From positions 1-64,000 of the IMG/VR virus record IMGVR_UViG_3300037845_000036: a stretch of 64,000 bases of DNA; one strand, 5' to 3'. The stretch comes from a virus. The notes under the pieces were generated by a model. It did not search any database. It was given only the letters and a program-made list of their open reading frames with translations, and was not told the origin of the DNA. Of this stretch, positions 5,600-31,344 are shown piece after piece. The position numbers were made by a program, and so were the translations under genes. The first letter of the stretch is position 1; every line of letters begins with the position of its first letter.

Positions 5600-6400
5600 T
5601 TAATAGGATTTAATGGCCGCAATCCGTTCGCCGATCCACCGCATGACGGGAACCGCCATGCTGTTGCCAAGCGCTCGGCAGCGTGGTCCATCGGCGGCGG
5701 GTTTGCCACGGTACCTAATCAGTGTGTAATCGTCAGGAAACCCTTGTAGGCGCTCGCACTCACGCGGCGTAAGGCGTCTAACCGCCGTGTTGGCCATAAT
5801 GGCAGTAGTGGTACTTGCCTCGCTTTGGCCCGGCGCCCGTGCCCGCAGTGGTGTATGGCAATTTGTTTCTTTGGCCCCGATAGTCGCCATCGCCCCAGTA
5901 ATGTCATAGGCAATAAGGTTGCCGCATTCACTCCCGGCTGGACCGCCGCTGTACTTTTCCCATTTGCTGACAACACAAGGGAGTTGTCTTTTATCCGGCA
6001 TGCGTTGATTTGCGCTACTCGCTGTCCAAGCGGGAAAGATTATATTTTCGGTTGTGTCTGCGTCGTTGCGGTATCCGCTACCTCCTGTAGAGCCTCCCGC
6101 AATTGGGCGGGCAACTCTTTCTCCCGCGTTTTGGCGCGGCGGAGAATCCCCGCGCAGGCTCTCGCGCTGACGCGGATGATTTGCCCCAATGAACCGGGTG
6201 ATACGGTGCGCATCTAAGTAGTTTTGACAATTGTGGCACTGACAGGGCTGACCCACGGCCCACGTATCGGTACCGCATAAATTTTTAGTAACCAGACAGC
6301 GCCGTTTCGCATCGGTAATTCGTTTGACCATTTTCACGTAGCGGCCAATGTTCCGCCGATACCTCTCCACTAGAGCGGGTCCATCATAATCTTCTTTCAT
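5600..6400 (-). CDS. Chimeric ORF ending in the C-terminal part of a C5-cytosine methyltransferase
   Basis: VRRLTPRECERLQGFPDDYT...ALGNSMAVPVMRWIG (motifs IX/X); no FxGxG or ENV motif upstream. Confidence 0.75.
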   Translation of the reverse strand: MKEDYDGPALVERYRRNIGRYVKMVKRITDAKRRCLVTKNLCGTDTWAVGQPCQCHNCQNYLDAHRITRFIGANHPRQRESLRGDSPPRQNAGERVARPIAGGSTGGSGYRNDADTTENIIFPAWTASSANQRMPDKRQLPCVVSKWEKYSGGPAGSECGNLIAYDITGAMATIGAKETNCHTPLRARAPGQSEASTTTAIMANTAVRRLTPRECERLQGFPDDYTLIRYRGKPAADGPRCRALGNSMAVPVMRWIGERIAAIKSY

Positions 6401-6423
6401 TTTTGTTTTCCCCTATTTTTCCT

Positions 6424-6654
6424 TTAAGTGCAATTAACGGAATCAAAAAAGAAGGCGTCTGGACCACAAAATTGACGAGGCGCATCCCGCATTATTGTTG
6501 GTTCAAGACATTCTCGGTTTCGTTCACAGAGCATCAATGAAAATCTGGTCTCACCCGTTATGTAGTCGGGGAAAGATACTTTAGCACTTGGATGAGTGCA
6601 CATATGCATGTTGTGCCACTCATTATGATGTTTGCAATCCTTACAAGCCCTCAT
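6424..6654 (-). CDS. Cys-rich hypothetical protein
   Basis: CKDCKH...CTHP...CERNR...CGPDA; bounded by junction sites. Confidence 0.8.
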   Translation of the reverse strand: MRACKDCKHHNEWHNMHMCTHPSAKVSFPDYITGETRFSLMLCERNRECLEPTIMRDAPRQFCGPDAFFFDSVNCT

Positions 6655-6682
6655 TTTCTAATTTCTCCGTCGTTAAGGGCGC

Positions 6683-6883
6683 TTAACGGTTATTGTTATA
6701 CCCATCGCCACTTTCAAATTCTCTTACTGCTTGTTCAAAGGCTTCGCCCATGCGAGTGAAGTCATTATGCGCAAAAGCCTCGGCGGCAATTTCACGCATT
6801 CGCCGGACCACCCACATTCCCTTGGGCGTAATCCGCATCGCCTGATCGTCGTCGTCATCCCGCGCCAATTCGTCGTCGCTCAT
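6683..6883 (-). CDS. Hypothetical protein
   Basis: RBS AGGGGG; bounded by junction sites. Confidence 0.75.
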   Translation of the reverse strand: MSDDELARDDDDDQAMRITPKGMWVVRRMREIAAEAFAHNDFTRMGEAFEQAVREFESGDGYNNNR

Positions 6884-6908
6884 AATTCCCCCTGTCCCTT
6901 AAAAGCGA

Positions 6909-7196
6909 TTAACGGTGTTGCGCGGCTTCTTGTTTGGCATTCATCGGTCGCGCGGGTGGGATACGCTTGTGAGCCGACTTAACCGGCGTGACGGTCAATA
7001 AATCGGGCGGTTTCCCACGCGCCGATAAATTGTTGTAGCAATGCACGGCGGTATGATCGGTCGTGCCATAGCGTTTGATGTGGCGCAGCAATGGCGCAAC
7101 CTTGTTGATTCCGCGCTGGCCTCGATTCTTATACGCCTCGCACCACTTCTTATTGCGACCGATTTTGCGACCTTTTTGAGATTTAGCGGCGGGCAT
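6909..7196 (-). CDS. Basic hypothetical protein
   Basis: RBS AAGGAGAG within/after the site; RKIGRNKKWC. Confidence 0.8.
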   Translation of the reverse strand: MPAAKSQKGRKIGRNKKWCEAYKNRGQRGINKVAPLLRHIKRYGTTDHTAVHCYNNLSARGKPPDLLTVTPVKSAHKRIPPARPMNAKQEAAQHR

Positions 7197-7208
7197 AAAG
7201 TCTCTCCT

Positions 7209-7559
7209 TTAACAAGCGTTAACGGTTGCCGCCGCTTTCAAGAACCATTCTTCGATTTCGTCGAAAGATTCCCGAGAGTTGTTATGCGCCGGAACCGCAA
7301 AAAAATGGACACTAGCCGCGTCTGCTAGACGGGCAACCGCTGCCCGCGCTTTATTCATGTCATAGTCTAAGGGGATAGATGCGACGAATTTCCCACCGAG
7401 TGCCTTGACGAGCGCTCCATTTGCGCAAACTCGTCCCTCTCCGTCGATGAGCCTCCCCCGGCACCAGCCATCACGACGCAGGATATCAAGTGCGTCCAAA
7501 ATAATTTTGGTTGTTTCGTCCAACCCCGTTCCGTCGAGTGGCATGGTCTTCCTCTCCAT
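7209..7559 (-). CDS. DUF6197-like protein (paralog of 22699-23052)
   Basis: ILDALDILRRDGWCRG...GRVCANGAL...HNN; true start probably MPLDGT (7544). Confidence 0.8.
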   Translation of the reverse strand: MERKTMPLDGTGLDETTKIILDALDILRRDGWCRGRLIDGEGRVCANGALVKALGGKFVASIPLDYDMNKARAAVARLADAASVHFFAVPAHNNSRESFDEIEEWFLKAAATVNAC

Positions 7560-7768
7560 TAAGAAACATTAACGGCGCGAAGCGTTTCACCCCATCCACC
7601 GCGATCAGCCGCCAACCCAAGCTCTATTAGATATCGAATAGCCGCCGCTCGGGTAGGGGTTGCGGGTTGGCGTAGTCGCCACTCGTCCACGCGAGCTAGG
7701 CGCTCAGCCGAAATCCGCATATCGAAACGCTCGTCTTGCATGGACGGACTATGCCGTACTTTTTTCAT
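7559..7768 (-). CDS. Ribbon-helix-helix (Arc/CopG-like) regulator
   Basis: RFDMRISAE.LARVDEWR..Q...PTRAAAIRYLIELGL. Confidence 0.85.
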   Translation of the reverse strand: MKKVRHSPSMQDERFDMRISAERLARVDEWRLRQPATPTRAAAIRYLIELGLAADRGGWGETLRAVNVS

Positions 7769-7839
7769 TGACGCAAGCGATAAAATATTGCTAGGTTATT
7801 TTTCGTGCCCCCCCCCGTGGGGAGAGAGGGAGAGCGAAA

Positions 7840-10011: not shown

Positions 10012-10275
10012 GTGTATGTTCACAATATGAGCATGGGAACAAGGGAAGAGACCAAAGGCAGCGACGAATGGGATATGTCCAGTCGTCGGGCGCGCCGCGT
10101 TTGCGGGAGCAAGGCAGGCCGTTGGTCAATAGTGAAGGCTAAATTTTGGCGGCGAGTGCGCAAGTCTTGGCGGCTTCGCGCTATTAATGATCTTCGGAAT
10201 TATCCCTTTCGCGTAGGTAGCGCTATGGGTAGTATGTCGCCCGACAGGCCGGCGCAAAAACAGGATGCGTCCTGA
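10012..10275 (+). CDS. Small basic protein whose native stop was displaced by the IS
   Basis: Removing the IS restores ...RAINDL-TAA; the current C-terminus reads into the IS end. Confidence 0.65.
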   Translation: MYVHNMSMGTREETKGSDEWDMSSRRARRVCGSKAGRWSIVKAKFWRRVRKSWRLRAINDLRNYPFRVGSAMGSMSPDRPAQKQDAS

Positions 10276-10362
10276 TGGCGCACCCTCGCATCAGGAAGGG
10301 TACGGGTGGAGCTAACTCGCTAGAACCGTTATCGCCGTCCTATGAGCTTTCCGAGATTGAAA

Positions 10363-11064
10363 TCACGCCCGAGATGATCGGGGTTGGCGTTGACGAGATG
10401 CTTGCTTGGCCTGAGACAGTAGCTTTGCGAGAGGACTGTGTAGCAAATATTTATCGGGCAATGGTGGAGGCCAAAGTTCGGGCCTATCCCACCGCGCGGC
10501 CCGCCGATGCCAATCGCCGAGGCGCATTGTCACGGAAATGATATAATTAGCTTCTTCCTTCAAAAGCTCTAAAGAAATACCGTGAAGCGGAATTTCTACG
10601 ACTTTACCTTGTCCCGCTCTATAACGATCTTTGGAATAACTACCATCCATCGCAGAAAGACCCGTCCAAGCTCCGTGTAACAGGTTGTTTCGATCTGCAT
10701 TTGCTTGCTGCAAACCACTGTAAATTGCCTCAGCGGATTTGCGCAACTGGTCATACGCAACAATTCTCGCATTTTGCGCGGAAGTGAGTTGATGCCCTCT
10801 CGGAAAAATCTCGAACGGTTGCGATGCCAGAATATAGAACAGTTCAATTCTTTGATTAGCATTCTGCATGAGCCATTCGAGAGCCGCCCCCTCGCGGTGC
10901 GACATCCGCATCATTTGTCTAAGGGTTGCCGTAAGCTGACGCTCTAGATCGGCGAACGCGACCGCAATGGCCCCGAGCGGGCGATAGAGCTTTCTGAAAA
11001 TAGGCGGCGGCTCGACATCTTTCCATTTAAGAGCGGGGATCTGTTCGTTCTTAATCCACGCCAT
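10363..11064 (-). CDS. IS passenger: helical protein with RxxxxH motif (HEPN-like)
   Basis: LGAIAVAFADLE...ANADRNNLLHGAW. Confidence 0.6.
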   Translation of the reverse strand: MAWIKNEQIPALKWKDVEPPPIFRKLYRPLGAIAVAFADLERQLTATLRQMMRMSHREGAALEWLMQNANQRIELFYILASQPFEIFPRGHQLTSAQNARIVAYDQLRKSAEAIYSGLQQANADRNNLLHGAWTGLSAMDGSYSKDRYRAGQGKVVEIPLHGISLELLKEEANYIISVTMRLGDWHRRAARWDRPELWPPPLPDKYLLHSPLAKLLSQAKQASRQRQPRSSRA

Positions 11065-11078
11065 GCTATCCTCCCCTT

Positions 11079-13083: not shown

Positions 13084-13178
13084 GGCCTGAGCCTCTAAAA
13101 TCTGGCGATATCCTACCCCTTGTGGCTACCTATGTCAAAGGGATAATTCCGATGATCTTTAACGGCATAGTGGGGCGG

Positions 13179-17712: not shown

Positions 17713-17996
17713 CTCGTGCTCAGCGGGCCGCCGATACTGTAACCGAGTTCTGCGGTTCCTGGACCTTTATCGCGGTCGGGTCAGTACTTACGACCGGATG
17801 GATTGCGTTGAACTCAATTCTTGTGCTGTTCGGAGAATTCGATCCGTACCCTTATATCTTATTCAATCTTGTGCTGACAGTTGTAAGCACATTTCAGGGA
17901 CCGCTGATTATGATGTCGCAGAACCGCCAATTAGAGCGCGACCGCGAAGCTGTGGCGGGATTGCACGCAAAGCTTGATGCGCTTCTTGGCCGTTAA
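17688..17996 (+). CDS. DUF1003 membrane protein
   Basis: RAAD.V..F.GSW.FI...FDPYPYILFNL.L...Q.PLIMMSQNRQ..RDR. Confidence 0.92.
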   Translation: MLPAQQRLTRAQRAADTVTEFCGSWTFIAVGSVLTTGWIALNSILVLFGEFDPYPYILFNLVLTVVSTFQGPLIMMSQNRQLERDREAVAGLHAKLDALLGR

Positions 17997-18002
17997 TACG
18001 TG

Positions 18003-18398
18003 TTAACGGGCATGGTCGGGACAGTGAATGTGTCCGCAGACGACACAGGCCGGGACATCTTCGATTCCCTCTAGTTTTGCCAAATTAAGTACGCGTTTGT
18101 GCTCGCGCGCTGCCCTAATCTCAAACAGCAGTAATGCAGTGCGGAGGTGATTTATGATTGCCTCTGTCTCGGCACATGGGATTTGGTTATTCAGATAACG
18201 CGAGCGAGAAATCAGCGCCCGCAACACCTCTTGGCAATTTGTACCTTCATAACCTTCCCCAACATTACCCGGATACCGATCACCCACGCGTTTTATAAAT
18301 CGTAGATGAACTTGTGACTCAGATTTATGAGCGGGATTCGGTGACAAACACCGAAGCGCGAAGGAGTGGCCTGGGTCAAAGCAAATCATTTTGACCAT
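18003..18398 (-). CDS. Acb2/Tad1-like helical hairpin protein (candidate)
   Basis: LRFIKR...GTNCQEVLRALISR..YLN...PC.E...I..L..ALL....R. Confidence 0.55.
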   Translation of the reverse strand: MVKMICFDPGHSFALRCLSPNPAHKSESQVHLRFIKRVGDRYPGNVGEGYEGTNCQEVLRALISRSRYLNNQIPCAETEAIINHLRTALLLFEIRAAREHKRVLNLAKLEGIEDVPACVVCGHIHCPDHAR

Positions 18399-18572
18399 TA
18401 AGTTACGTTAAAGGTCATCATACCCATCCCGGTAGATGGCAGGGCGTGCTAGTCGTCCCATCGTAGTTCACGTCGTCGCACCCGACCTGAACGCACCCTG
18501 AGATCGCGGCGGCGAGCACAAATAAGGCGAGCAAGGCAGCGATGACGCTGAGCTTTCGGTGGTCTGCGTCGC

Positions 18573-19242: not shown

Positions 19243-19401
19243 TTAATTACAGTTAAAGACAAGATATGAAACTGCAAAGCCAACACCAGACCAAAGGATG
19301 ACGATTGCAATTTGCTTTGCTACTTCGCCGGGAGGGTACATGGCACCGCTATACAGCGCCGCCCCGCCTATGAGTAATAATGATAGCGGGATTGTATTCA
19401 T
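19243..19401 (-). CDS. 52-aa two-TM membrane peptide
   Basis: MNTIPLSLLLIGGAALYSGAMYPPGEVAKQIAIVILWSGVGFAVSYLVFNCN fills the space between two sites. Not in the ORF track. Confidence 0.75.
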   Translation of the reverse strand: MNTIPLSLLLIGGAALYSGAMYPPGEVAKQIAIVILWSGVGFAVSYLVFNCN

Positions 19402-19422
19402 GGCCGTTAAGGTTTATTAAAG

Positions 19423-20136: not shown

Positions 20137-20595
20137 TTAAGGAGATTTAACGGCTACTTTTGCGGCAAGCCAATCACGGAAGGCTCGGCGCGCGAGGGTG
20201 GCGCAGCCGCCGGTCTCAGCTACATGTTCCAAGGCCGGCGGGGATGCGCCAAGTCGTATGCCAGCAACATCGGAAGACAACTCGCCAGTAGATCCTTCCA
20301 GCAAAGCCGTCACCAAACGTGCCCTAGTGGTGGGACACAAAAGGTCTCTAACGATACGTTTGGCGAGCGAATTAGTCAACGTAACAGCTTTGTTCGGACG
20401 CCGTTTATACCAATCGACGCCATCAAGGATTGATGGATGCTCCTTAATGAATCCGCGAATTTGCCCTTCTACGATCGGCTGAATGACTTTCTCAAGCGGG
20501 TCCATTCCCGGCGCGGGTAAGTCTCGCTTCGGCGCCAATTCTCGCAGCGCAGAGATTTGTTCTGGCGTCAGCAGTGAGGCGAGTGGGGTTGCCAT
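20137..20595 (-). CDS. Hypothetical protein
   Basis: 152 aa, ending in a site (AVKSP*). Confidence 0.7.
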   Translation of the reverse strand: MATPLASLLTPEQISALRELAPKRDLPAPGMDPLEKVIQPIVEGQIRGFIKEHPSILDGVDWYKRRPNKAVTLTNSLAKRIVRDLLCPTTRARLVTALLEGSTGELSSDVAGIRLGASPPALEHVAETGGCATLARRAFRDWLAAKVAVKSP

Positions 20596-20811: not shown

Positions 20812-21024
20812 TTAACCTTCTTTAAAGTCATCGTCGCCGTAGAGCCATTTGATTCTGAGATGCGCGGCTATAGCGGTGGCTAGGGCGCATTCGGCTGGAG
20901 TTTCGCATCCGATAGTCGGCCGCTGCGAGTGTTGGATGTTGGAACGAATGTCGGGATCAGCCTTTTGTTTTTCTCCCCACCACGCGAGCGCGGCCTTCCA
21001 AAGTGGGTCATCAAAACCGATCAT
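20812..21024 (-). CDS. Hypothetical protein
   Basis: Site-bounded ORF. Confidence 0.7.
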   Translation of the reverse strand: MIGFDDPLWKAALAWWGEKQKADPDIRSNIQHSQRPTIGCETPAECALATAIAAHLRIKWLYGDDDFKEG

Positions 21025-21029: not shown

Positions 21030-21380
21030 TTATTCTTCCTTAAAAGTATGACGGCCAGTACCGTCAGGTTGGATATTCCACTCCCGCCGTCGATTAATGA
21101 CCATCTTCCGGTCTATTTCTTCGTGTAGATCCACACCATTTAGCATCGCCCAGCAATATAGGAGGATGACGATATCGGCCGCCTCAACTGCAGCTAAGCG
21201 ATCATCGGGCGCATCAAAAAATTCGCGAATTTCCTCTCTTAGATGCCCCGTTACGCCAGCCGAAGTGGCGGTGGGGAAGTGATCGCGCTGCCAACTATTA
21301 ATAGTGGCTTGAGTTTCGCGAGGGGGCATTCGGATCGGACCGTGTGAGAAGTCCCATTCGTCGCATTTGTCCATAACCAT
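21030..21380 (-). CDS. MazG-like dNTP pyrophosphohydrolase (DUF550-type)
   Basis: W....FP.......HLREEIRE...EAADIVILL...KM.IN.RR.W. Confidence 0.8.
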   Translation of the reverse strand: MVMDKCDEWDFSHGPIRMPPRETQATINSWQRDHFPTATSAGVTGHLREEIREFFDAPDDRLAAVEAADIVILLYCWAMLNGVDLHEEIDRKMVINRRREWNIQPDGTGRHTFKEE

Positions 21381-21571
21381 TAATCCCTGTTAACGGCGGG
21401 GTCGCGAACACGACTCAATAGATGCTCGCGATATGCGTTTAATGCGTCAAGCACGGGCGGTTCAAGAGCGATGGCTTTGCTATTCGATATACCGTCGCTC
21501 GTCCAGATCCAAATGTGGTATCCGTCTTGTGCCGCATAGACCCCATCGCCGAGATAAGTTTCATCTTTCAT
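21380..21571 (-). CDS. Hypothetical phage protein
   Basis: MKDETYLGDGVYA..DGY.IW...IALEP.V..AL. Confidence 0.75.
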   Translation of the reverse strand: MKDETYLGDGVYAAQDGYHIWIWTSDGISNSKAIALEPPVLDALNAYREHLLSRVRDPAVNRD

Positions 21572-22074: not shown

Positions 22075-22256
22075 ATCTAATATTCCTCTGAACAGTTGAA
22101 GTGGGTGATTCCGTCTCTTGAAACGCAGGAAATGACCCGGCTCACGCCGAGAGAGAGCGAAAAATCGCGCAGAGACGGTATTTCTGTACCCCTGATGTCA
22201 CCCCGCACTTGGTGGAGAAGTTTTCCGCTCCCTAACTGTTAATGGGCGTTAACGGT

Positions 22257-22698: not shown

Positions 22699-23052
22699 TT
22701 AAGGGCTGTTAACGGCAGCCATAGATGCTGCCCTCAGAAACCAATCTTCGATTTCGGTAAATGTCATGCGTGAATTATTGAAATCCGGGACGCCCTGACT
22801 ACGCTTGCCGATGGGGCAGTCACAAGCTTCCGCCAACCGATCACGCGCCAATATAAATTTATCAACGGGCCATCCATCGGGGCGAATCCTTGGATCGGTT
22901 CCCGTAACTGCTTTAACCAACGCGCCATTGGCGCACACCCGTCCCTCGCCGTCTGATAATTTGCCGCGACACCAACCTTCACGGCGCAGAATGTCGAGAG
23001 CATCCAAAATGATTTGAGTTGTTTCGTCTAAATTCGTTCCGTCGAGAGGCAT
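22699..23052 (-). CDS. DUF6197-like protein (paralog of 7209-7559)
   Basis: MPLDGTNLDETTQIILDALDILRREGWCRG..., near-identical N-half to the paralog. Confidence 0.85.
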   Translation of the reverse strand: MPLDGTNLDETTQIILDALDILRREGWCRGKLSDGEGRVCANGALVKAVTGTDPRIRPDGWPVDKFILARDRLAEACDCPIGKRSQGVPDFNNSRMTFTEIEDWFLRAASMAAVNSP

Positions 23053-23074
23053 TAGCTTTCTCCTTTAAGTCCGA

Positions 23075-23641
23075 TTAACGGGTTAATTCTTGTAGCGCGT
23101 TCTGTCGCGCCTCGTTCAGTTCAGTCATTGCCGCTGTGCTACCGCCAGTATCGGGATGTGCAACTCGCGCGCGCTCGCGGAAGACACGTTCAATTGTATC
23201 TTTGTCAATCACCCTATCCGTGATGCCCAAAACCTCTCGCCACGACTTAGGCGCAGGTAATGCCTTGAACCCCGCGAAAGAAGCACGAACCAATGCGAGA
23301 GTACCGTGCCGCAACTCTACACGACGCGCTTCAATGATATGATGAATGGCTTGTAAGTTGCCGGCGACGTTATCATAACGATCAACAGGAATACAAACCT
23401 GTAGCTGTTCCCAGGTGAAATAAACGGCCACGCCAGGATCGAGTGGACGTTCCGATCCGAGCGTCACATTTGACGACATGACAACATTCGTAACAACTTT
23501 GCCGCTATCTTGACCAAACAATCGAAGTGAAGTCTGCACGTTCTTGAGTGCGCCAGGCAGCGTCGTCTTGAATCGCCCCGGTTCATGACGAGATGCACGA
23601 GGGAACCCAGCAGGCCAAGTAAGAGGATACGCGGTTGTCAT
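23075..23641 (-). CDS. Phage protein with C-terminal J-domain
   Basis: AYPLTWP...DPGVAVYF...W.EVLG...AHPDTGGS..AM.ELN.A. Confidence 0.9.
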   Translation of the reverse strand: MTTAYPLTWPAGFPRASRHEPGRFKTTLPGALKNVQTSLRLFGQDSGKVVTNVVMSSNVTLGSERPLDPGVAVYFTWEQLQVCIPVDRYDNVAGNLQAIHHIIEARRVELRHGTLALVRASFAGFKALPAPKSWREVLGITDRVIDKDTIERVFRERARVAHPDTGGSTAAMTELNEARQNALQELTR

Positions 23642-23644: not shown

Positions 23645-23965
23645 TTAATTTCTATTAACGTCTAGCGCTTCAAGCGCATCCGCCACTGCAGCCGGGCTGC
23701 GATTTGATAGAGGCTCACGAAGTCCAAAAAACGGAGAGTTCTGAATATTAGCTAATGGCAAACCAAATTGTTTTGCCAACTCTCTCTTGAGCCTGTTTGA
23801 TGCTCCTCCGGTTCGCGACCCTTTGACGATGCCCAATTGTGCAGCCACCTCAATCGCGCACGTGCGGCATGAACCGTAATACCACCAATCTGGCGGGTTT
23901 TCTCGCAATTCCCGTATAAGCAGTTCACGATTCAACTTCTGTTCGTTCGCGATATCAAACGGCAT
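23645..23965 (-). CDS. Hypothetical protein (related to 30018-30344)
   Basis: MPFD...LIRELR...CA...PAAVADALEALD. Confidence 0.75.
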   Translation of the reverse strand: MPFDIANEQKLNRELLIRELRENPPDWWYYGSCRTCAIEVAAQLGIVKGSRTGGASNRLKRELAKQFGLPLANIQNSPFFGLREPLSNRSPAAVADALEALDVNRN

Positions 23966-23978: not shown

Positions 23979-24185
23979 TTAAGAAGCCTTAACGGTTAGC
24001 GGCACGGAGGAATCCATTCCCCAATCGCGCCGATGTGCATCAGCGACGGTTTTGAGGTCGTCGATGCAGTCAAAACAGATATACGTTGGCATGCCACCAG
24101 CATGGACGCCAATCATTCCGACCGTCTCTAGATGTGGGTGCGAGCAACGGATGCACGTGGGGACGCGCGGCGGCCCTTTGCTCAT
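23979..24185 (-). CDS. ClpX-type C4 zinc-finger-like small protein
   Basis: CIRC...MI...G...YICFDCID. Confidence 0.6.
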   Translation of the reverse strand: MSKGPPRVPTCIRCSHPHLETVGMIGVHAGGMPTYICFDCIDDLKTVADAHRRDWGMDSSVPLTVKAS

Positions 24186-24388
24186 TCTGCCGCACTCTCA
24201 TGTTTTGCGTTGGCTTTCCGTTCAGCTTTCATATGGCCAATGACTATCTCAACGATTTGAGGAACCGGGAGGCGCCCCCGTGCCCAGCGCGAAACTGTCT
24301 CACGCTGCCGCCCGACGATCGTGGCGAAGTCTCCATGAGTCATTTCAAGCTCTACCAGGGCGACCCGGAACTCTAGCGCTGTCATCAT
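24182..24388 (-). CDS. XRE-type HTH regulator
   Basis: EFR.AL..L.MT..DFA..VG....TVSRWARG..PVP. Confidence 0.85.
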   Translation of the reverse strand: MMTALEFRVALVELEMTHGDFATIVGRQRETVSRWARGRLPVPQIVEIVIGHMKAERKANAKHESAAE

Positions 24389-24394
24389 TGCGCG

Positions 24395-24484
24395 AGGCTA
24401 CACCGTCAGAAACCCTCATGTCAAAACATTTTTCGCACTAAATTGACTTTCCGCTTGACCTCAGCGACGGCGCGGCTTTATGGT
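24395..24484. promoter_or_regulatory. Divergent promoter pair
   Basis: Minus TTGACA(24424-24419)-18 nt-TAGCCT(24400-24395); plus TTGACC(24455)-18 nt-TATGGT(24479); gene orientation flips here. Confidence 0.6.
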
Positions 24485-24571
24485 TTGCCTGCCACCCGCG
24501 CTCCCGGCACCCCAACGCCGGTTAGCCCGCCCCTTAAGGCTACGACGCGCGGGTGGTCACGGAGAGGTAAG

Positions 24572-25448: not shown

Positions 25449-25699
25449 CATGGCAAGTGCCCGGCGCGCAGGGGAACTTCGTCCACTGGCCGCAAGAGCT
25501 TGATGATCACGAGGCTGAGATCGACTCGTGGGAGTCGGTGACGGTTGATTATATTCCACCGCCGCCGCCCGCGCCCTGGTGGCGCGCGCCGCTGTTATGG
25601 GGGTTGGCGATGGTGGGTCGCATCAATCGCGAGGCAGTGTGGGGCATGAGCGCCGGCGTCATATTGATTATTACGCTGTTCGCGCTGTTCTGCCTTTAA
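25445..25699 (+). CDS. Small membrane protein
   Basis: C-terminal TM segment; stop lies in a site. Confidence 0.7.
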   Translation: MTWQVPGAQGNFVHWPQELDDHEAEIDSWESVTVDYIPPPPPAPWWRAPLLWGLAMVGRINREAVWGMSAGVILIITLFALFCL

Positions 25700-25712
25700 T
25701 GGAGCTTAAAGG

Positions 25713-26165
25713 ATGATCCAACTCGATCCCAATAGTCTCGTGACCAAATACTTTCTGTGGCAATGCGATCACAACGTCTTCGTCACCAACGCAGATCCGG
25801 TGGATAATAAATATGTTCGTCGGAAGGGTGCATATTACTTAGAACACGGCACGACACTATGCCATATTTTTTGGGCCACACTATGGATGCCATTGGTGGC
25901 TGCCGCCATTATCGGATTTCTTCTCGTAATGCTGGCTGCGCTTCATGTTTCCGCATATGAGGCGTTTAGTGCAAAATTTGGAATTGCCGCTTTCTTCGCG
26001 CCCGAGTTTTTCGTGCTTGGATTTGTTATCGCCGCTGCTCTTTTGACCCTGATCTTGATGGGTGCTGGGAAGCTCCCGTTTTGGAAATTGGTTTGGTTGT
26101 ACCTAAAGGGGATCAAAAATCGGATTTGCCCCTTGGTTCAATTCGACGCCGTTAAGGGGCATTAA
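25713..26165 (+). CDS. Membrane protein
   Basis: TLCHIFW, two TM segments, RICPLV; site-bounded. Confidence 0.8.
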   Translation: MIQLDPNSLVTKYFLWQCDHNVFVTNADPVDNKYVRRKGAYYLEHGTTLCHIFWATLWMPLVAAAIIGFLLVMLAALHVSAYEAFSAKFGIAAFFAPEFFVLGFVIAAALLTLILMGAGKLPFWKLVWLYLKGIKNRICPLVQFDAVKGH

Positions 26166-26169: not shown

Positions 26170-26499
26170 ATGTCAAGGCACTCGAACAATGATCGAGACA
26201 ATAAAATAATAGAATTTTATCGGACGCATAATTTGCGACAGACTGGCGCTGAATTTGGGATTAGCCACTGGCGGGTAAGCCAAATTCTTCAGGCACATAA
26301 GACTGCTCGGCGTGAAAAGCGAGAATGGTTGGAACCGCTTGATTGCCATCCCGACCCGTGCATTGAAGGTGCGGCAAAAGCTATGCATCTAGCGGATGTT
26401 CCGCCCGCTACTAGGGCGTGGAACCGACTTTATAGGAAGCGCCGTGACCGTTATCGTGCGATGGCTAGCGCGGCTCTTGCGAGCGTTAAGAGGAGTTAA
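26170..26499 (+). CDS. HTH-containing protein
   Basis: RD..I......LRQTGAEFGIS..RVSQIL. Confidence 0.75.
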   Translation: MSRHSNNDRDNKIIEFYRTHNLRQTGAEFGISHWRVSQILQAHKTARREKREWLEPLDCHPDPCIEGAAKAMHLADVPPATRAWNRLYRKRRDRYRAMASAALASVKRS

Positions 26500-26619
26500 A
26501 GGTGAGCGCTGAGACCACGGAATGGCCGGGTCGGATACGACTCTCGATGAATAGTCCTCGCCATAGTGAGGTACGATGGCGTCGGTTGTGCGGCCGTGTT
26601 TCTCAGCGCTCTCCTTTAA
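26496..26619. ncRNA. Candidate structured non-coding unit between two sites
   Basis: Terminal inverted repeat ttaaaggtgagcgctgaga / tctcagcgctctcctttaa plus internal hairpins; no credible ORF. Confidence 0.45.
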
Positions 26620-26640
26620 ATCAATTAAAGGCGCACAATC

Positions 26641-26782: not shown

Positions 26783-27043
26783 ATGTCCATGTTGGTTGCC
26801 GAGGAAATCGAGGTTGGTGTGCGCGGGCGCAACATCACTGTGCGTGGCGTCCGCGTGCCCGATGCGAAAAACACTTATGAGCGAACAGAAGAAATTTCCT
26901 TGGATCTGACTTTGGCACGAGAGTTGTTTCGTCTGCTGAGTGCGGCAATCCCGTTAGCAGAAACATTCGGACCAATCAGATCTGATGGGGATGTAATTTC
27001 GGCGCTGCATGAAGTTGTCAATCCCGCCGTTAAAGTAGCTTAA
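26783..27043 (+). CDS. Hypothetical protein
   Basis: RBS AGGAG; ends in a site (AVKVA*). Confidence 0.7.
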   Translation: MSMLVAEEIEVGVRGRNITVRGVRVPDAKNTYERTEEISLDLTLARELFRLLSAAIPLAETFGPIRSDGDVISALHEVVNPAVKVA

Positions 27044-27794: not shown

Positions 27795-27824
27795 GCCGTT
27801 AACACCACTTAAAGGAAGAGAAAA

Positions 27825-28568
27825 ATGCCCCTAGACAGCACAAAGTGGCAAGAACTTGCGGCTGAATTGGAATCGGTCGAACCGTTCGCTAGTCCCACTC
27901 TGACGCTGCCAAAGAGCGCGGCGGCAAACCCGTCCCCGTTTCCGCGCATTATGTTTTTGCCTCTTTTCGTGGCGTTCGGAGCGCTTGGGTTTATAGGCGG
28001 TCTCATCATTTTTGAGACACCCAGCCCGCCGTCGCCAAATGTCCTGGTCGGCATGCCGGATGCGGATGCGCCATCCATTTCTCCCTCGGTCCCCATTGGT
28101 TTAACCACGACAGCGAGCGGGGTACTGGTAAATACAGGGATTACAATCGGGAGCGGCACTACGGGTACGGTTATATATATGGCTTCTACGGGCGTACCAT
28201 ATGGCGGCATCATTACTGTCGATGGCACTACCATCACAAGTAATAGCGGTAATTTTATGGAACACGCAATACCACCGCACGGCACTGATTATGATGTTAT
28301 GAGTGACAGCTATTATGATATGGACGGGAACTCAGTCGCGGATGGTCACGCCAATGGTGCGCGTTATCACGTCATCAGTGAAGGGTATTACGGCGCTGGC
28401 GGTGCCCTCCTAGAGCGTCGAGTATCAATGCATATCGTCGATCCGCTCTATTGCTCGCCGGGGCACGATCGCCCGATGGTCGCGAGCGGTAATGACCCTG
28501 TGCCGGGGCCTGTGTACCAGCAAATGCAGGGCAACGCACAATTCGCGTCTGTCGAGCCTAGCTTTTAA
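27825..28568 (+). CDS. Single-TM protein
   Basis: TM segment followed by a Thr/Gly/Ser-rich domain; site-bounded. Confidence 0.75.
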   Translation: MPLDSTKWQELAAELESVEPFASPTLTLPKSAAANPSPFPRIMFLPLFVAFGALGFIGGLIIFETPSPPSPNVLVGMPDADAPSISPSVPIGLTTTASGVLVNTGITIGSGTTGTVIYMASTGVPYGGIITVDGTTITSNSGNFMEHAIPPHGTDYDVMSDSYYDMDGNSVADGHANGARYHVISEGYYGAGGALLERRVSMHIVDPLYCSPGHDRPMVASGNDPVPGPVYQQMQGNAQFASVEPSF

Positions 28569-29135
28569 CTTCTCTTAAAGTAAAGGTTTGATGCCAACGT
28601 TTGCCGCAGACGATTACGACGCCATTCGGGCACGGATGCATGAGTTGCGTGCAGCACCCATATCAAATATGGCGGCGCCCGCATCGGGACAGCGGTGCAG
28701 TCAGAACTATGATGGGAAAACGTGTGGGTTTGGCTGCGTTTTAGCACTCACGACTGGCATAATGTGCCGCAACTTCGGTAGCAAAATCTTGGCCCCCGAC
28801 TAATGGAAAAGCCGAAAGACCAACAACTCAAAAGTATCGATCATTCCGTCCGCGCATACGATAGCGCACGGCTGACGTGGCGACGCGAGCAGACTGAGTA
28901 CGGTTGGGGATTCTGGTATCTGATCCGTATAGATCCGCCGGCCGATGCCTAAGCCGAAACCGATAGAACAATTGTTCACTGAGTGCGGGATTTGTGGCGC
29001 TTCCGTTCATGTCAACGGTTTGTCCCAACATCTACGAGCGCACGGAGTGGCGAAGGACAGCGATGATGCAACCGTGGCGCACGCTCACCGTGTATGGAAG
29101 CGCATCATAGAGCATCAGAAGAAGGCAAAACTGAT

Positions 29136-29342
29136 ATGAGCGACGATCGCTACGACGTGTTAGGCGTGAATCTCCGCTCAAAGACGGTGCGGATCATATC
29201 GCGGGATCTGAGTGCGCCGAATGCCGATGCCCTTGTGAAGCTCGCAGTCATGCGCCGGGGCATCGAAGACGAGTTCTTTGTGGAATAGCCAGTTGGCCAG
29301 TACCGCGACGGCGACATATTCGGAACCGTTAATCAACCTTAA
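29136..29342 (+). pseudogene. Small protein with internal TAG
   Basis: MSDDRYDV...EFFVE*PVGQYRDGDIFGTVNQP*; the frame continues exactly to the TAA of the site. Confidence 0.6.
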
Positions 29343-29353
29343 AGGAGAGGGAA

Positions 29354-29764
29354 TTGTCACGCTCTGGTTACACCGATGACTTAGGCAGCGAATGGGCGCT
29401 GATTTGCTGGCGCGGGGCAGTTGCTAGCGCCATCCGAGGAAAGAGAGGCCAAGCCTTCCTACGGGAGATGCTAGACGCGCTCGATGCGCTAGAGGCAAAG
29501 CGTCTTATTGCAAACGATTTGGTTCGTGAGGGCGAACTGCTCAGCGATGGTGTCTGCGCTATTGGTGCGATCGGCATGGCCCGTGGAATCGAAATGTCTG
29601 AGATTGATCCCGAGGATCGAGACACAATCGCCGGCACCTTTGACGTAGCTCCCGCTCTAGCCGCAGAAATTATGTATGAGAACGACGAGGGTTCTTGGCA
29701 AGAAACGCCAGAGCAGCGGTTTGCGCGAATGCGGGCATGGGTTGACAAGCAGATACGCCGTTAA
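29354..29764 (+). CDS. Conserved phage hypothetical protein
   Basis: MSRSGY.DD...WRGAVASAIRGKRGQAFLRE...EI.YENDE...TPEQR..RMR.WV. Confidence 0.85.
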   Translation: MSRSGYTDDLGSEWALICWRGAVASAIRGKRGQAFLREMLDALDALEAKRLIANDLVREGELLSDGVCAIGAIGMARGIEMSEIDPEDRDTIAGTFDVAPALAAEIMYENDEGSWQETPEQRFARMRAWVDKQIRR

Positions 29765-29787
29765 CAACAATTAAAGGAACCATCCAA

Positions 29788-29991
29788 ATGGATATCCGGC
29801 ATATCGAAGAGCGTCACATGATCGAATATCGTGGGCAAAGTGTCTCTATTGGGGTGACTGATACTGGCGAGTGGGTTGCGGTACGCTCTGTGACCCCGGC
29901 ATTTTTGATGATGGGCGACACCCCAGAGGAAGCGGAAGAAAAGGCACGACATGCCCTCGACTTTTGGGCCGTTGAACGATTTCCCCGTTAA
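29788..29991 (+). CDS. Small HicB-N-like protein (tentative)
   Basis: W.A.....P.....GDTPEEA...A..AL; site-bounded. Confidence 0.55.
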   Translation: MDIRHIEERHMIEYRGQSVSIGVTDTGEWVAVRSVTPAFLMMGDTPEEAEEKARHALDFWAVERFPR

Positions 29992-30017
29992 GGACTATTA
30001 AAGGAAGGAGAAGGCTA

Positions 30018-30344
30018 ATGCCTTTTGATGGAACAGAGACTCCGGCGTTGCGGCGCGCTCGTTTGATTGAAGTGCTCCGTTCGCCGATGCCAAACACTTG
30101 GAAATGGGATTTCGGCGTGACGGAGGAAGAACATGAATGCGGCACCGCTGGGTGCGCGTTGGGCCTCGCCCGGCAGTTGTGGCCAGAGATGAATGATTTT
30201 CACGCGATAAGAGATCGCGAGGCCGCATTCTTTGGGATAACAAAAGACCAAGCCTTCAGTGTCTTTTTCGGTCCATATCGCGGATGTTTTGCAAGCGTAA
30301 CACCTGAGATGGTGGCCGATCGGCTTGAAGCAATTGACCGTTAA
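30018..30344 (+). CDS. Hypothetical protein (related to 23645-23965)
   Basis: MPFDGT...LIEVLR...CGTAGCALG...TPEMVADRLEAID. Confidence 0.8.
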   Translation: MPFDGTETPALRRARLIEVLRSPMPNTWKWDFGVTEEEHECGTAGCALGLARQLWPEMNDFHAIRDREAAFFGITKDQAFSVFFGPYRGCFASVTPEMVADRLEAIDR

Positions 30345-30359
30345 CTGGCCTTAACGTCA

Positions 30360-30569
30360 ATGACCGAGTGCTGCGAGTTGATGCGCCTAGAATTGGCCCG
30401 TGTTTGTGATATCCATGAATCCGATCCTTGGGGATGTGCAGACCGAGTTATCGTGAAACTGCGCAATAACGAATATGGGTTAATTATTCACGATGGCGGA
30501 AGTGCGTTCTACGGAATCAAATTCTGTCCGTTCTGCGGCACACGACTTGGAAACGAAGAACGGCAATGA
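30360..30569 (+). CDS. DUF6980-like Cys-rich protein
   Basis: CCE.M...CD.H...C.D...EYGLIIHDGGS...I.FCPFCG. Confidence 0.8.
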   Translation: MTECCELMRLELARVCDIHESDPWGCADRVIVKLRNNEYGLIIHDGGSAFYGIKFCPFCGTRLGNEERQ

Positions 30570-30863
30570 CCCAAAGCGACGACATCGATTTCTCACTATT
30601 CAGCTTTGGCGCTCTCAGAAAATCAGACCGCGAGAGGTGTGGTGTGTACTTGGTCATCAAATCACGATGGCGTCCAAGCCGTCATGGAAAGAAGTAGCCG
30701 TTGCGATAGAGCGGTGGGCCGCGCGCCAATACGATGGTTCCTGAAGTGGCGGGTAGGTTAATGATACGAGCGGCAGGATACTTGAATCTAACCAGCGCGC
30801 TATTGACTGTTGGTTTTGTACGTTTATGTGATCGGGTTTGTCTTCGGCATGTGGCGGGTGATA

Positions 30864-31049
30864 ATGCGCTGAGAGGAATGCCACGGTATTGGATATGTCC
30901 TTGAACCAAAGCGCGACTATCCATATGAGCAGATGAAGAAGGTCCGCCGCCCATGCCGCACCTGTGACGGATCGGGCGTTATGTCTTGCTGTGATGGTGC
31001 GGTGGGGGTGTCGGTTGACGTGACGAATCAAGAGGGCGGGAATGACTGA
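30864..31049 (+). pseudogene. DnaJ-type CxxCxGxG zinc-finger gene with TGA at the first Cys position
   Basis: MR*EECHGIG...PCRTCDGSGVMSCCDG. Confidence 0.65.
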
Positions 31050-31344
31050 CGCTGCTAAGATTGTTGACGATATCATCCGAGGATGGGCCGGTTTAACCGG
31101 GGCGGAGGATGAAATCGTGATGCAAGAAAGCATCGCCAGGGAGAAATTTACTCGTGCAATTGAAGAAGCAGAGGCGCGCGGGCGAGCGGTGGGGAAGGAG
31201 GTTATTGAGGCGGCTCAAGGGGTCGTAGCCGCCCACGCCGCGATGCAACAGCGTGGCGGTTCAGTTGTCCCTATAGAATTACATGAGGCCACCGCGGAAT
31301 TGCAAGAAACTCTTGATTCCTTCTCAACTCTTAACGTGAATTAA
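31042..31344 (+). CDS. Hypothetical protein
   Basis: Ends in site 31331, convergent with 31331-31555. Confidence 0.7.
   Translation: MTDAAKIVDDIIRGWAGLTGAEDEIVMQESIAREKFTRAIEEAEARGRAVGKEVIEAAQGVVAAHAAMQQRGGSVVPIELHEATAELQETLDSFSTLNVN

What the first reader, a model, noticed from the sequence alone, without database searches (positions are those of the whole stretch)
5600..31344. The sites are built into translation signals and stamp protein C-termini
Seen: a stop in the distal TTAA gives ends like AVNAC, AVNVS, SVNCT, AVKSP, AVNRD, AVNSP, DVNRN, TVKAS, AVKGH, SVKRS, AVKVA, AIKSY, DFKEG and TFKEE. A stop in the proximal TTAA (CGT TAA) gives ...R* at 6683, 6909, 17996, 18003, 23075, 29764, 29991 and 30344. 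The downstream arm TTAAAGG often starts the next RBS. Sites mostly follow transcription polarity (CCG arm upstream, AGG arm downstream), flipping at 24.4 kb, and the convergent junction at 17990 is a symmetric CCG...CGG. Inference: any rearranged cassette keeps a stop and an RBS, and spacer exchange would vary the last residues.
Basis: partly seen in the sequence, partly recalled or inferred. Interest (0 to 1): 0.75.

Follow-up and report, generated by a model that had tools for sequence, protein, structure and literature searches.

The report
Gene-junction TTAA dyads in a phage
A temperate phage carries a 20-bp two-fold symmetric DNA motif (TTAA-6 bases-TTAA) at about three quarters of the junctions between its small early genes; it is most likely a protein-binding control site squeezed between tightly packed genes, which explains why it supplies stop codons, ribosome-binding sites and short protein tails, and nothing found here supports it being a gene-shuffling site.

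Summary
TTAA-N6-TTAA occurs 31 times in the window and 34 times in the 97-kb virus record, against 0.65 expected. Other spacings give 0-2. Twenty-six sites supply the upstream gene's stop codon, and 28 of 39 early junctions carry a site against 1 of 45 late ones. Arm polarity follows transcription (13:0). The tails are site-encoded: homologues in motif-free phages keep the protein body but have different tails.

The cassette-exchange inference is not supported. All 53 spacers differ. The commonest arm pair (G/A) breaks a hairpin. The consensus is a dyad, RCCG-TTAA-N6-TTAA-(C>A)GG, whose downstream arm is overwritten by a Shine-Dalgarno sequence or a start codon.

I found a second, otherwise unrelated complete phage (G003, 59 kb) with 19 such sites in its early operon. 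The two share few proteins, mainly a Cre-like tyrosine recombinase (50% identity), DUF6197, and possibly a small ribbon-helix-helix-like repressor. In both, a site sits 3 bp upstream of the recombinase promoter.

Best reading, about 45%: operator-like sites for a small phage DNA-binding protein, analogous to mycobacteriophage stoperators and SAS/ESAS. Rivals are an mRNA-level operator, a host CtrA-like factor, and recombinase-driven cassette exchange. First-stage notes on this same genome had flagged the dyads; none concerned other DNA.

The parts
391..404 (+). site CTC-TTAA-N6-TTAA-TGG
   Evidence: ORF 2..394 stops in the proximal TAA
4687..5559 (-). Cre-like tyrosine recombinase (integrase)
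   Evidence: Pfam Phage_integrase. Nearest PDB sequence is Cre, E 1e-16. 50% identical to the G003 recombinase
5600..5613 (-). site; stop of ORF 5600-6400 (AIKSY*); 3 bp upstream of the TTGAC -35 of the int promoter
6424..6437 (-). site CCG..AGG; distal stop SVNCT*
6673..6686 (-). site CCG..CGA; proximal stop ...R*
6899..6912 (-). site CCG..GGG; proximal stop ...R*
7209..7222 (-). site CCG..AGG; distal stop TVNAC* of DUF6197 gene; SD AAGGAG
7559..7572 (-). site CCG..TGG; distal stop AVNVS*; an ATG overlaps the distal TAA (TTAATG); the DUF6197 gene may instead start 15 nt further on (MPLDG)
7559..7768 (-). 69-aa RHH-like small repressor, first gene of the left array; candidate site binder
   Evidence: phrog_4738 E 6.5e-5. 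Weak match to G003 49130-49345. Atlas RHH_1 lead. Beta-alpha-alpha-like model. Fold search inconclusive
10184..10187 (+). left half of a site split by IS1595 (right half 13159-13162)
13159..13162 (+). right half of the IS-split site (TTAA-CGG)
17993..18006 (.). fully palindromic site CCG..CGG at the convergent junction; both ORFs end ...R*
18398..18411 (-). site CCT..TGG; stop 6 nt upstream; TTAATG start
19243..19256 (-). site TCT..AGG; distal stop
19407..19420 (-). site ACT..CGG (near-reversed arms); distal stop
20137..20150 (-). site CCG..AGG; distal stop AVKSP*
20812..20825 (-). site ACT..AAG; distal stop DFKEG*; SD lies in the spacer
21030..21043 (-). degenerate site (TTAA-N6-ATAA in gene orientation); stop TFKEE*
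21380..21393 (-). site CCG..TGG; distal stop AVNRD*; TTAATG start
22239..22252 (-). site CCG..CAG; stop 4 nt upstream; no start nearby
22699..22712 (-). site CCG..AGG; distal stop AVNSP* of the second DUF6197 gene
23065..23078 (-). site CCG..AGG; proximal stop QELTR* of the J-domain protein
23645..23658 (-). site ACG..AAG; distal stop DVNRN*
23979..23992 (-). site CCG..AGG; distal stop TVKAS*
24182..24388 (-). 68-aa HTH regulator, first gene of the leftward array; no G003 counterpart
   Evidence: phrog_4779 E 4e-7; weak Crp-type HTH
24389..24571 (.). divergent promoter region between the two arrays; it holds no site
25696..25709 (+). site CCT..AGG; proximal stop; SD lies in the spacer
26152..26165 (+). 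site CCG..CGC; distal stop AVKGH*
26486..26499 (+). site GCG..AGG; distal stop SVKRS*
26616..26628 (+). variant site with a 5-bp spacer (CCT-TTAA-N5-TTAA-AGG)
27030..27043 (+). site CCG..AGG; distal stop AVKVA*
27799..27812 (+). site CCG..AGG; stop 4 nt upstream
28565..28578 (+). site CTT..AGT; proximal stop
29329..29342 (+). site CCG..AGG with SD AAGGAG; no incoming ORF of 45 aa or more
29761..29774 (+). site CCG..AGG; proximal stop ...R*
29988..30001 (+). site CCG..AGG; proximal stop ...R*
30341..30354 (+). site CCG..CGT; proximal stop ...R*
31331..31344 (+). site CTC..AGG; distal stop; end of the rightward array
36886..36899 (-). isolated site CCG..AGG in a 560-nt gap of the late region

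Best explanation
The TTAA-N6-TTAA elements are double-stranded DNA binding sites for a two-fold symmetric protein. The ideal site is RCCG-TTAA-N6-TTAA-CGG: two palindromic TTAA boxes one helical turn apart, with an uncontacted variable centre. Most likely the binder is a small phage-encoded repressor, bound as a dimer or a dimer of dimers. The candidate is the ribbon-helix-helix-like 69-aa product of 7559-7768.

The sites sit at the intercistronic junctions of the early/accessory operons. By analogy with stoperators, they probably let the bound protein block or modulate transcription through these operons and into the recombinase promoter.

The genes are packed tightly, and the dyad contains TAA in two frames on both strands. 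Upstream ORFs therefore run into the site and stop there, which gives the [AST]-V-[NK]-x-x* or ...R* tails. The downstream arm is rewritten as the next gene's SD (TTAAAGGAG) or start (TTAATGG). The 'stamping' is a by-product, not the function.

Shown here: motif, dyad logo, junction placement, early-region restriction, by-product tails, absence of a hairpin signal, and presence in a second phage. Inferred: the DNA-level action, the identity of the binder, and the roadblock mode.
For: 1. Strict spacing. N6 outnumbers N7 34:0 in G000 and 19:1 in G003, against expectations of 0.65 and 0.01.
2. Dyad logo. C-2/C-1 mirror G+16/G+17. GG is kept even when the arm is TGG or CGG. In G003, C-2 and G+17 are invariant in all 19 sites.
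3. The asymmetric position (G upstream, A downstream) tracks the distance to the next start codon. It reverts to C where no start follows or one follows too closely (17993, 19407, 26152, 30341).
4. The site-to-start distance falls into three classes (13, 16-20 and 25-37 nt). The site is therefore not a fixed part of the initiation signal.
5. A hairpin is disfavoured. Pair 0/15 is G/A in 16 of 33 sites, about half the sites fold at -0.4 kcal/mol or weaker, and a typical CCG...AGG site (spacer of site 22699) folds at 0.0. Rfam gives no match.
6. Sites mark 28 of 39 early junctions against 1 of 45 late ones. None lies inside a sense-strand gene of the early arrays, although one frame would permit it.
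7. In both phages a site lies 3 bp upstream of the TTGAC -35 of the recombinase promoter.
8. The motif is phage-specific. There are only 2 TTAA-N6-TTAA and no CCGTTAA-N6-TTAA in the 3.9-Mb alphaproteobacterial MAG that carries a 93%-identical IS1595 transposase.
9. Both phages encode a small RHH-like protein at or near the head of an array.
10. Precedents exist: stoperators (PMC9283540) and ESAS inverted repeats with a variable spacer and a better left arm (PMC3203893).
Against: - No binding was or could be tested.
- The RHH assignment is weak: 32% identity over 37 residues, no Pfam hit, and inconclusive fold searches.
- The divergent early promoter region 24389-24571 has no site, unlike L5, where the operator and the stoperators share one consensus.
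- The GG of the downstream arm is also part of the SD, so part of the apparent symmetry could come from translation signals.
- In G003 most sites directly abut GGAG: by script, 12 of 19 have GGAG, GAGG or AGGA within 8 nt of the site end. An mRNA-level role would predict this too.
- Only two genomes carry the motif, so co-variation between binder and site cannot be assessed.
Confidence: 0.45

Rival explanations
1. mRNA-level operator. A phage RNA-binding protein or endoribonuclease recognises UUAA-N6-UUAA next to the SD. It represses, processes or couples translation of early cistrons, in the manner of T4 RegA or RegB (recalled from general knowledge, not checked here).
For: Polarity with transcription is 13:0. 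The sites lie within 0-23 nt of the next start at most junctions. In G003, 12 of 19 directly abut GGAG. They are restricted to early operons. 26 of 34 and 17 of 19 sites contain the upstream stop.
Against: Two-fold symmetry of the cores and of the CC/GG flanks is not expected for a linear RNA motif. Sites with no downstream start exist (17993, 22239, 31331). The site before int lies upstream of a promoter, so it may not be in the int mRNA. Phasing to the start codon is variable. There is no stable structure and no Rfam family.
Confidence: 0.2
2. Host-factor sites. A host DNA-binding protein of an alphaproteobacterial host binds them, either CtrA (which binds TTAA-N7-TTAA) or another global regulator. 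Two unrelated phages of related hosts would have evolved the sites independently, to tie early expression to host state.
For: Hints of an alphaproteobacterial host. Unrelated alphaproteobacterial phages are known to accumulate CtrA boxes (PMC9437464). TTAA-N6-TTAA near-consensus sites are reported as CtrA sites at ctrA P2 and podJ P1 (PMC11264516, PMC4287350). G000 and G003 share no convincing regulator.
Against: Spacing is strictly N6: N7 counts are 0 and 1. The extra CC/GG flanks are not part of the CtrA box. Sites are spread one per junction rather than clustered in a gap or a terminal repeat as in PMC9437464. The candidate host-clade MAG has only 2 N6 and 5 N7 sites in 3.9 Mb.
Confidence: 0.12
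3. Recombination sites. The dyads are minimal core sites (7-bp inverted arms, 6-bp centre) for the Cre-like tyrosine recombinase, or microhomology boundaries for the phage RecE-like system. Site-bounded genes would then behave as exchangeable cassettes that always keep a stop and an RBS.
For: The arm-spacer-arm geometry fits tyrosine-recombinase cores. The recombinase is by far the best conserved protein shared by the two otherwise unrelated motif phages (50% identity). It is Cre-like, with Cre its nearest solved relative over nearly its full length. A site precedes it in both phages. DUF6197 genes are site-bounded in both phages. PeSLs in T4-type phages are a precedent for junction repeats that mediate shuffling (PMC2839356).
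Against: All 53 spacers differ, whereas Cre/Xer-type exchange needs matching centres. The conserved arms are only 7 bp. There is no hairpin or co-variation for an attC-like folded substrate. In G003 a tRNA-3'-end-like stretch between promoter and int gives the enzyme an ordinary attP. 22 more distant recombinase homologues in 19 alphaproteobacterial genomes have no arrays nearby. The HNH gene is site-associated in G003 but not in G000's late region. No rearranged relatives could be found.
Confidence: 0.08
4. A compositional or chance pattern with no function.
For: TTAA contains stop codons, so it tends to be found near gene ends.
Against: 34 observed against 0.65 expected. Other spacings give 0-2. 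The flanks are conserved. A second genome has 19 against 0.01 expected.
Confidence: 0.01

Closest known systems
Stoperators of Cluster A mycobacteriophages (L5 gp71-type repressor sites; PMC9283540)
   Same: More than 20 copies of a short site in short intergenic spaces or overlapping stops and starts. Polarity correlates with transcription. Specific to the phage. Proposed to act on transcription through operons.
   Different: Stoperators are asymmetric 13-mers bound by a monomer, occur in both genome arms, and share their consensus with the promoter operator. Here the site is a 4-6-4 dyad with symmetric flanks, is confined to early arrays, and is absent from the divergent early promoter region. 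Binding is untested.
Start-associated sequences and extended SAS of Cluster K mycobacteriophages (PMC3203893)
   Same: Repeats confined to the non-structural half, next to or containing the SD, with upstream stops sometimes inside them. ESAS are inverted repeats with a variable spacer, a better left arm, and no RNA-pairing co-variation. Absent from the host. Function unknown.
   Different: Different sequence. SAS has a fixed 3-7 bp distance to the start codon, whereas here there are three distance classes and the tie to the upstream stop is tighter. The arms are shorter (7 bp against 17 bp). The likely hosts are in another phylum.
PeSL promoter/stem-loop cassettes of T4-type phages (PMC2839356, PMC4122927)
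   Same: Repeated junction elements between small non-essential early genes in plastic regions.
   Different: PeSLs are a sigma-70 promoter plus a terminator hairpin, and recombination and mini-circles have been demonstrated for them. Here there is no promoter or terminator signal above shuffles, no stable hairpin, and no evidence of exchange.
CtrA boxes in alphaproteobacterial phages (TTAA-N7-TTAA; PMC9437464)
   Same: TTAA half-sites; likely host class; intergenic; independent occurrence in unrelated phages.
   Different: The spacing is 6, not 7. There are extra CC/GG flanks. The sites are dispersed one per junction rather than clustered in a large gap or terminal repeat.
14-bp 4-6-4 operators of dimeric HTH proteins (434 repressor/Cro ACAA-N6-TTGT; CRP/FNR-type TTGAT-N4-ATCAA), recalled from general knowledge
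   Same: Two 4-5-bp half-sites 10 bp apart with a variable centre.
   Different: Those occur in a few copies at promoters, not at dozens of gene junctions.
Integron attC sites
   Same: They lie just after cassette ORFs, with a tyrosine recombinase gene near the array.
   Different: attC sites are 57-141-bp imperfect palindromes recombined as folded single strands. Here the site is 20 bp, no fold is selected, the genes have their own SDs, and the recombinase scores below the integron-integrase cut-off.

Membership tests
Stoperator system (Cluster A mycobacteriophages) | Asymmetric 13-bp site | tested here: not met
   The logo is a dyad: TTAA-N6-TTAA with mirrored CC/GG
Stoperator system (Cluster A mycobacteriophages) | Many copies in short intergenic spaces, oriented with transcription | tested here: met
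   28 of 39 early junctions; polarity 13:0
Stoperator system (Cluster A mycobacteriophages) | The same site also serves as operator at the early lytic promoter | tested here: not met
   No site in 24389-24571 or 7769-7839
Stoperator system (Cluster A mycobacteriophages) | Bound by the immunity repressor, blocking elongation | not testable with these tools
   Needs EMSA, ChIP or reporter assays
SAS/ESAS (Cluster K mycobacteriophages) | 13-bp GGGATAGGAGCCC-type repeat, 3-7 bp from the start codon | tested here: not met
   Different sequence. Start offsets are 13, 16-20 and 25-37 nt from the site start
SAS/ESAS (Cluster K mycobacteriophages) | Confined to non-structural genes; contains or abuts the SD; absent from the host | tested here: met
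   The host is only a candidate clade
Integron (attC + IntI) | attC folds as an imperfect hairpin with paired R''/R' and L''/L' boxes | tested here: not met
   The G/A mismatch is dominant, and about half of the sites fold at -0.4 kcal/mol or weaker
Integron (attC + IntI) | Integron-type integrase | tested here: not met
   TIGR02249 scores 38 bits against a 265-bit cut-off for G003 and is not listed for G000. Cre is the nearest solved relative
Cre/lox-type simple site | Inverted arms of about 13 bp around a spacer that is identical between partner sites | tested here: not met
   Only 7 bp of each arm are conserved, and 53 of 53 spacers are distinct
Cre/lox-type simple site | The recombinase cleaves and exchanges at the site | not testable with these tools
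   Needs in vivo or in vitro recombination assays. Read-level data were unavailable
CtrA box | TTAA-N7-TTAA spacing | tested here: not met
   N7 count is 0 in G000 and 1 in G003, against 34 and 19 for N6
PeSL (T4-type phages) | Sigma-70 early promoter plus a terminator stem-loop | tested here: not met
   In the two 20-kb regions covering the arrays, promoter-like matches are not enriched over shuffles and terminator-like matches at most weakly in one scan; the sites form no stable stem
Ribbon-helix-helix repressor (candidate binder 7559-7768) | Beta-alpha-alpha fold with an N-terminal DNA-reading strand | tested here: inconclusive
   phrog_4738 'transcriptional repressor' E 6.5e-5. No Pfam hit. 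Atlas RHH_1 lead at 0.92. The model has an extended stretch plus two helices at pLDDT about 80. Fold and PDB searches were not discriminating

The most novel reading that the evidence does not exclude
The dyads are the working sites of the Cre-like recombinase that the two otherwise unrelated motif-bearing phages share. That would make a phage-borne, integron-like system in which single early genes are excised, captured and reordered as site-bounded cassettes, each arriving with a ready-made stop and RBS. The variable 6-bp centres would imply an unusual exchange that tolerates heterology: a single-strand exchange resolved by replication, as with Xer-dependent IMEX elements.
Probability: 0.08. 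Interest if true: 0.9.

Novelty: new variant of a known kind. Interest (0 to 1): 0.55.

Why it matters
Dense, phage-specific junction repeats are known mainly from actinobacteriophages (stoperators, SAS/ESAS). The function of SAS/ESAS was described as unknown in the 2011 paper read here.

This is an independent system in two unrelated phages, probably of Alphaproteobacteria. It has a very clean dyad and occupies about 72% of early junctions. That offers several things:
- A tractable case for asking how a phage controls, insulates or silences long arrays of small accessory genes, including anti-defence candidates.
- A natural example of one DNA element overlapping a stop, a regulator site and an RBS.
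- A compact portable junction sequence for synthetic operons.

It also shows that short site-encoded C-terminal tails can be tolerated on many proteins. If the minority recombination reading were right, this would be a new kind of gene-cassette system in phages.

Tried and rejected
I used my own ORF and junction tables, and my crude gene caller undercalls early genes.

**Searches for relatives**
- Two two-site patterns returned only G003 plus AT-rich chance hits.
- No close relatives turned up with the terminase (one hit at 36% identity, with no sites), the 247-aa array protein, DUF6197 in metagenomes, the recombinase alignment in IMG/VR and JGI metagenomes (only G003), or GenBank phages by DNA.
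- The word-based homologue search for DUF6197 found only the phage's own two paralogues.

**Hypotheses tested and set aside**
- RNA hairpin or cruciform: rejected on mismatches and energies.
- Rfam: nothing at gathering scores. The G003 tRNA-like stretch gives no Rfam or ARAGORN call. It matches only the 3' parts of tRNA genes.
- Sigma-70 promoter-like matches are not above shuffles in either region; terminator-like matches exceed shuffles only in the 4-24 kb scan (34 against 22.0, sd 4.0), and only two of the listed ones overlap a site.
- Host-regulon idea: the candidate host-clade MAG has almost no such sites and no related prophage.

**Candidate binder**
- RHH fold check: Foldseek and VIA-align gave only non-specific helical matches, and the PDB profile search gave CopG at E 0.6 only.

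**Other**
- Recombinase homologues in 401 alphaproteobacterial genomes: 22 loci, none with an array within 1.5 kb.

Full report
**What the window is.** The window is the first 64 kb of a 97,058-bp IMG/VR virus record (G000), estimated 92% complete. It is a temperate-type phage.
- It has a tyrosine recombinase at 4687-5559, a C5-methylase-like gene and an MT-A70 methylase.
- An IS1595 element lies at about 10.2-13.2 kb, and a ClpB-like ATPase module follows it.
- Tail and fibre genes start at about 37 kb. Portal, terminase, primase and a RecE-like gene lie beyond the window.
- Two long arrays of small, mostly unannotated genes diverge from about 24.4 kb: leftward to 18.0 kb and rightward to 31.3 kb. 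A third array runs leftward from 7768 through the recombinase.

**The observation.** TTAA-N6-TTAA occurs 31 times in the window and 34 times in the genome. Every other spacing from 0 to 15 gives 0-2, and a second-order Markov model expects 0.65.
- Degenerate copies lie at 2386, 21030, 26615 (5-bp spacer) and 41732. One site was split by the IS.
- I oriented 33 sites by local gene direction. The logo is R-C-C-G-TTAA-N6-TTAA-(A21/C6/T5)-G-G, with no information beyond it apart from an A-rich SD region.
TFKEE belongs to the degenerate site 21030.
- Seventeen sites give the upstream ORF its stop in the distal TAA and nine in the proximal TAA. Four have the stop 3-6 nt upstream.
- Polarity is 13 CCG-to-AGG against 0 reversed (p = 2.4e-4). 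The convergent junction 17993 is a perfect CCG...CGG palindrome.
- Sites occupy 28 of 39 early junctions and 1 of 45 late ones (p = 2.6e-12).
- The only open frames running through sites are antisense shadows, apart from a short sense-strand frame (ORF 36762..36941, 59 aa) over the isolated late-region site 36886. No site therefore lies inside a sense-strand gene of the early arrays, although one reading frame would allow it.

**Are the tails 'stamped'?** Yes.
- The two DUF6197 paralogues match Pfam to profile position 110 of 111. They then carry TVNAC and (MA)AVNSP.
- In an alignment with 17 homologues, the conserved body ends at WFxxAAA. Every tail after it differs in length and sequence.
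- The J-domain protein 23075-23641 has 47 relatives in IMG/VR loci. None of those loci holds a single TTAA-N6-TTAA. The 45 examined end within a few residues of the same point with variable tails and TGA/TAA stops, often TGATG. Ours ends CGT-TAA inside a site.

The stamping is also what geometry predicts. The dyad has TAA in two of three frames on both strands, so any ORF packed against it ends in it. Stops fall inside the site at 26 of 34 sites in G000 and 17 of 19 in G003, close to the two-thirds expected by frame alone.

**What explains the polarity.** The downstream arm depends on the next start codon.
- It is AGG (TTAAAGGAG) when the start lies 25-37 nt from the site start.
- It is TGG when the ATG overlaps the distal TAA (TTAATGG).
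- It is CGN when no start follows or one follows within a few bases (17993, 19407, 26152, 30341, 6673). In several of the close cases the SD sits in the spacer instead (20812 agaagg, 25696 tggagc).
- GG at +16/+17 is kept in all of these classes.

The simplest reading is an ideal palindrome, CCGTTAA-N6-TTAACGG, whose downstream arm is compromised by translation signals.

**Hairpin or duplex?** A hairpin is not selected. The 0/15 pair is G/A in 16 of 33 sites. About half of the sites fold at -0.4 kcal/mol or weaker, and a typical CCG...AGG site (spacer of site 22699) folds at 0.0. Rfam finds nothing in the window. Consensus promoter-like matches are not enriched over shuffles; terminator-like matches are modestly enriched in the 4-24 kb scan only.

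**A second phage.** A pattern scan with the SD included returned one GC-rich contig with several sites. This is G003, IMGVR_UViG_3300024232_000001: 59,383 bp, 59% GC, with a 127-bp terminal overlap, so it is complete.
- It has 19 TTAA-N6-TTAA, against at most 1 at any other spacing and 0.01 expected.
- All 19 lie in one rightward early operon that runs across the record ends.
- The logo there is C-Y-N-TTAA-N6-TTAA-N-G-G, usually followed by AGA, 5-8 nt and ATG. C-2 and G+17 are invariant.
- Thirteen upstream ORFs stop in the proximal TAA and four in the distal TAA.

G000 and G003 are otherwise unrelated. An all-against-all comparison finds only these shared proteins:
- the tyrosine recombinase (50% identity, E 4e-104);
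- DUF6197 (35%);
- a 68-aa protein;
- tail-fibre segments;
- an HNH endonuclease;
- weakly, a small repressor-like protein (G000 7559-7768 against G003 49130-49345; 32% over 37 residues).

In both phages a site lies 3 bp upstream of a TTGAC -35 element in front of the recombinase gene. Two further two-site pattern scans found no third member in IMG/VR.

**Weighing the recombinase.**

Points in favour:
- The enzyme is Cre-like: Cre is its nearest solved relative over nearly its full length.

Points against:
- All 53 spacers differ.
- Only 7 bp of each arm are conserved.
- No fold is selected.
- G003 has a tRNA-3'-end-like stretch (T-arm, acceptor, CCA) between the promoter and int. That is the usual signature of an attP for integration into a tRNA gene.
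- 22 more distant homologues in 19 of 401 alphaproteobacterial genomes have no arrays within 1.5 kb.
- The shared HNH gene is site-associated in G003's early operon but not in G000's late region. The sites therefore go with the region, not the gene.

I keep recombination at about 8%.

**Host and host factors.** Several hints point to Alphaproteobacteria.
- The IS1595 transposase is 93% identical to one in an alphaproteobacterial MAG.
- The ClpB-like protein is 51% identical to that of an Agrobacterium phage.
- The terminase is distantly similar to those of Caulobacter and Roseobacter phages.
- G003 shares short DNA similarity with phiCbK-like phages.

That raises CtrA, whose box is TTAA-N7-TTAA and which unrelated alphaproteobacterial phages are known to exploit (PMC9437464). 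Occasional N6 sites are reported for CtrA (PMC4287350, PMC11264516). Three things argue for a different binder: the strict N6 spacing (34:0 and 19:1), the CC/GG flanks, and the one-per-junction spread. The MAG has only two TTAA-N6-TTAA and five N7 sites in 3.9 Mb, and no related prophage.

**Candidate binder.** Two palindromic 4-bp boxes 10 bp apart suit either a dimeric HTH (434-like 4-6-4 geometry) or two ribbon-helix-helix dimers on one face of the helix. This is inference from general knowledge.
- The 69-aa product of 7559-7768 heads the left array. It hits a PHROG of transcriptional repressors, shows an RHH-like sequence pattern shared with the G003 protein, and gets an RHH_1 lead in the ESM Atlas.
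- Its model shows an extended segment plus two helices at pLDDT about 80.
- Pfam, PDB-profile and fold searches were not discriminating.
- The 68-aa HTH at 24182-24388 is a second candidate, but it has no G003 counterpart.

**Verdict.** The description 'built into translation signals, stamps C-termini' is right, but it describes a by-product.

The most likely function is an operator-like DNA site at early-gene junctions. The closest analogues are stoperators (PMC9283540) and the SAS/ESAS repeats (PMC3203893), and the element meets the definition of neither. It is a new variant of a known kind of phage genome feature, now seen in two unrelated phages. The binder and the mode of action are still open.

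Noticed in passing
window 10184-13162: An IS1595-family element with about 1.9 kb of passenger DNA is inserted inside a junction site (8-bp duplication ATGATCTT). Its transposase is 93% identical to one in an uncultured alphaproteobacterial MAG, which is the best lead to the host.
   Followed up: partly
L206:15214-15362 (G003 55214-55362): Between a strong TTGACA-17-TAGAAT promoter and the recombinase gene lies a tRNA-3'-end-like stretch (GGTTCGAGCCCC...CACCA). It is probably the attP core. It matches only the 3' parts of tRNA-His and tRNA-Asp genes in sampled Alphaproteobacteria.
   Followed up: partly
window 5560-5599: The recombinase promoter region holds a second dyad, GATATC-N6-GATATC, over the spacer and -10. 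The -10 lies only about 6 nt before the ATG, so the mRNA may be leaderless. G003 has CTAG-N7-CTAG in the equivalent spacer.
   Followed up: no
window 26496-26640: A gene-free unit of about 124 nt lies between site 26486 and the N5 variant site. It is closed by a 38-nt imperfect inverted repeat (76% complementary) that includes the site arms. It could be a small RNA, a terminator or a MITE-like insert.
   Followed up: no
window 7209-7559, 22699-23052, 29354-29764: There are two clear DUF6197 paralogues and one weak one (E 9e-4). Several other array genes start MP[LF]D like this family.
   Followed up: partly
window 19006-19227 and 21030-21380: A 73-aa protein passes the Pfam cut-off for the Acb2/Tad1 hairpin domain (28.5 bits against 27). 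The 116-aa protein is a MazG-like or dATP/dGTP pyrophosphohydrolase. Both are anti-defence candidates among the array cargo.
   Followed up: no
window 23075-23641: A 188-aa protein with a C-terminal J-domain-like HPD motif has 47 relatives (44-67% identity) in GC-rich viral contigs. Those contigs share almost nothing else with this phage, so this is a single-gene mosaic module.
   Followed up: partly
G002 (MAG reached through L175): TTAA pairs are strongly depleted in this 3.9-Mb genome. TTAA-N6-TTAA occurs 2x against 22x for the control AATT-N6-AATT, and N7 occurs 5x against 32x.
   Followed up: no
window 1-270: Seven or more tandem copies of a 27-nt unit sit at the very start of the record, inside an open frame that stops in site 391.
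   Followed up: no
window 21733-22074: A 113-aa protein gives a sub-threshold hit to the GapR DNA-binding domain (E 0.006). GapR is an alphaproteobacterial nucleoid protein that binds AT-rich DNA. There is no counterpart in G003.
   Followed up: no
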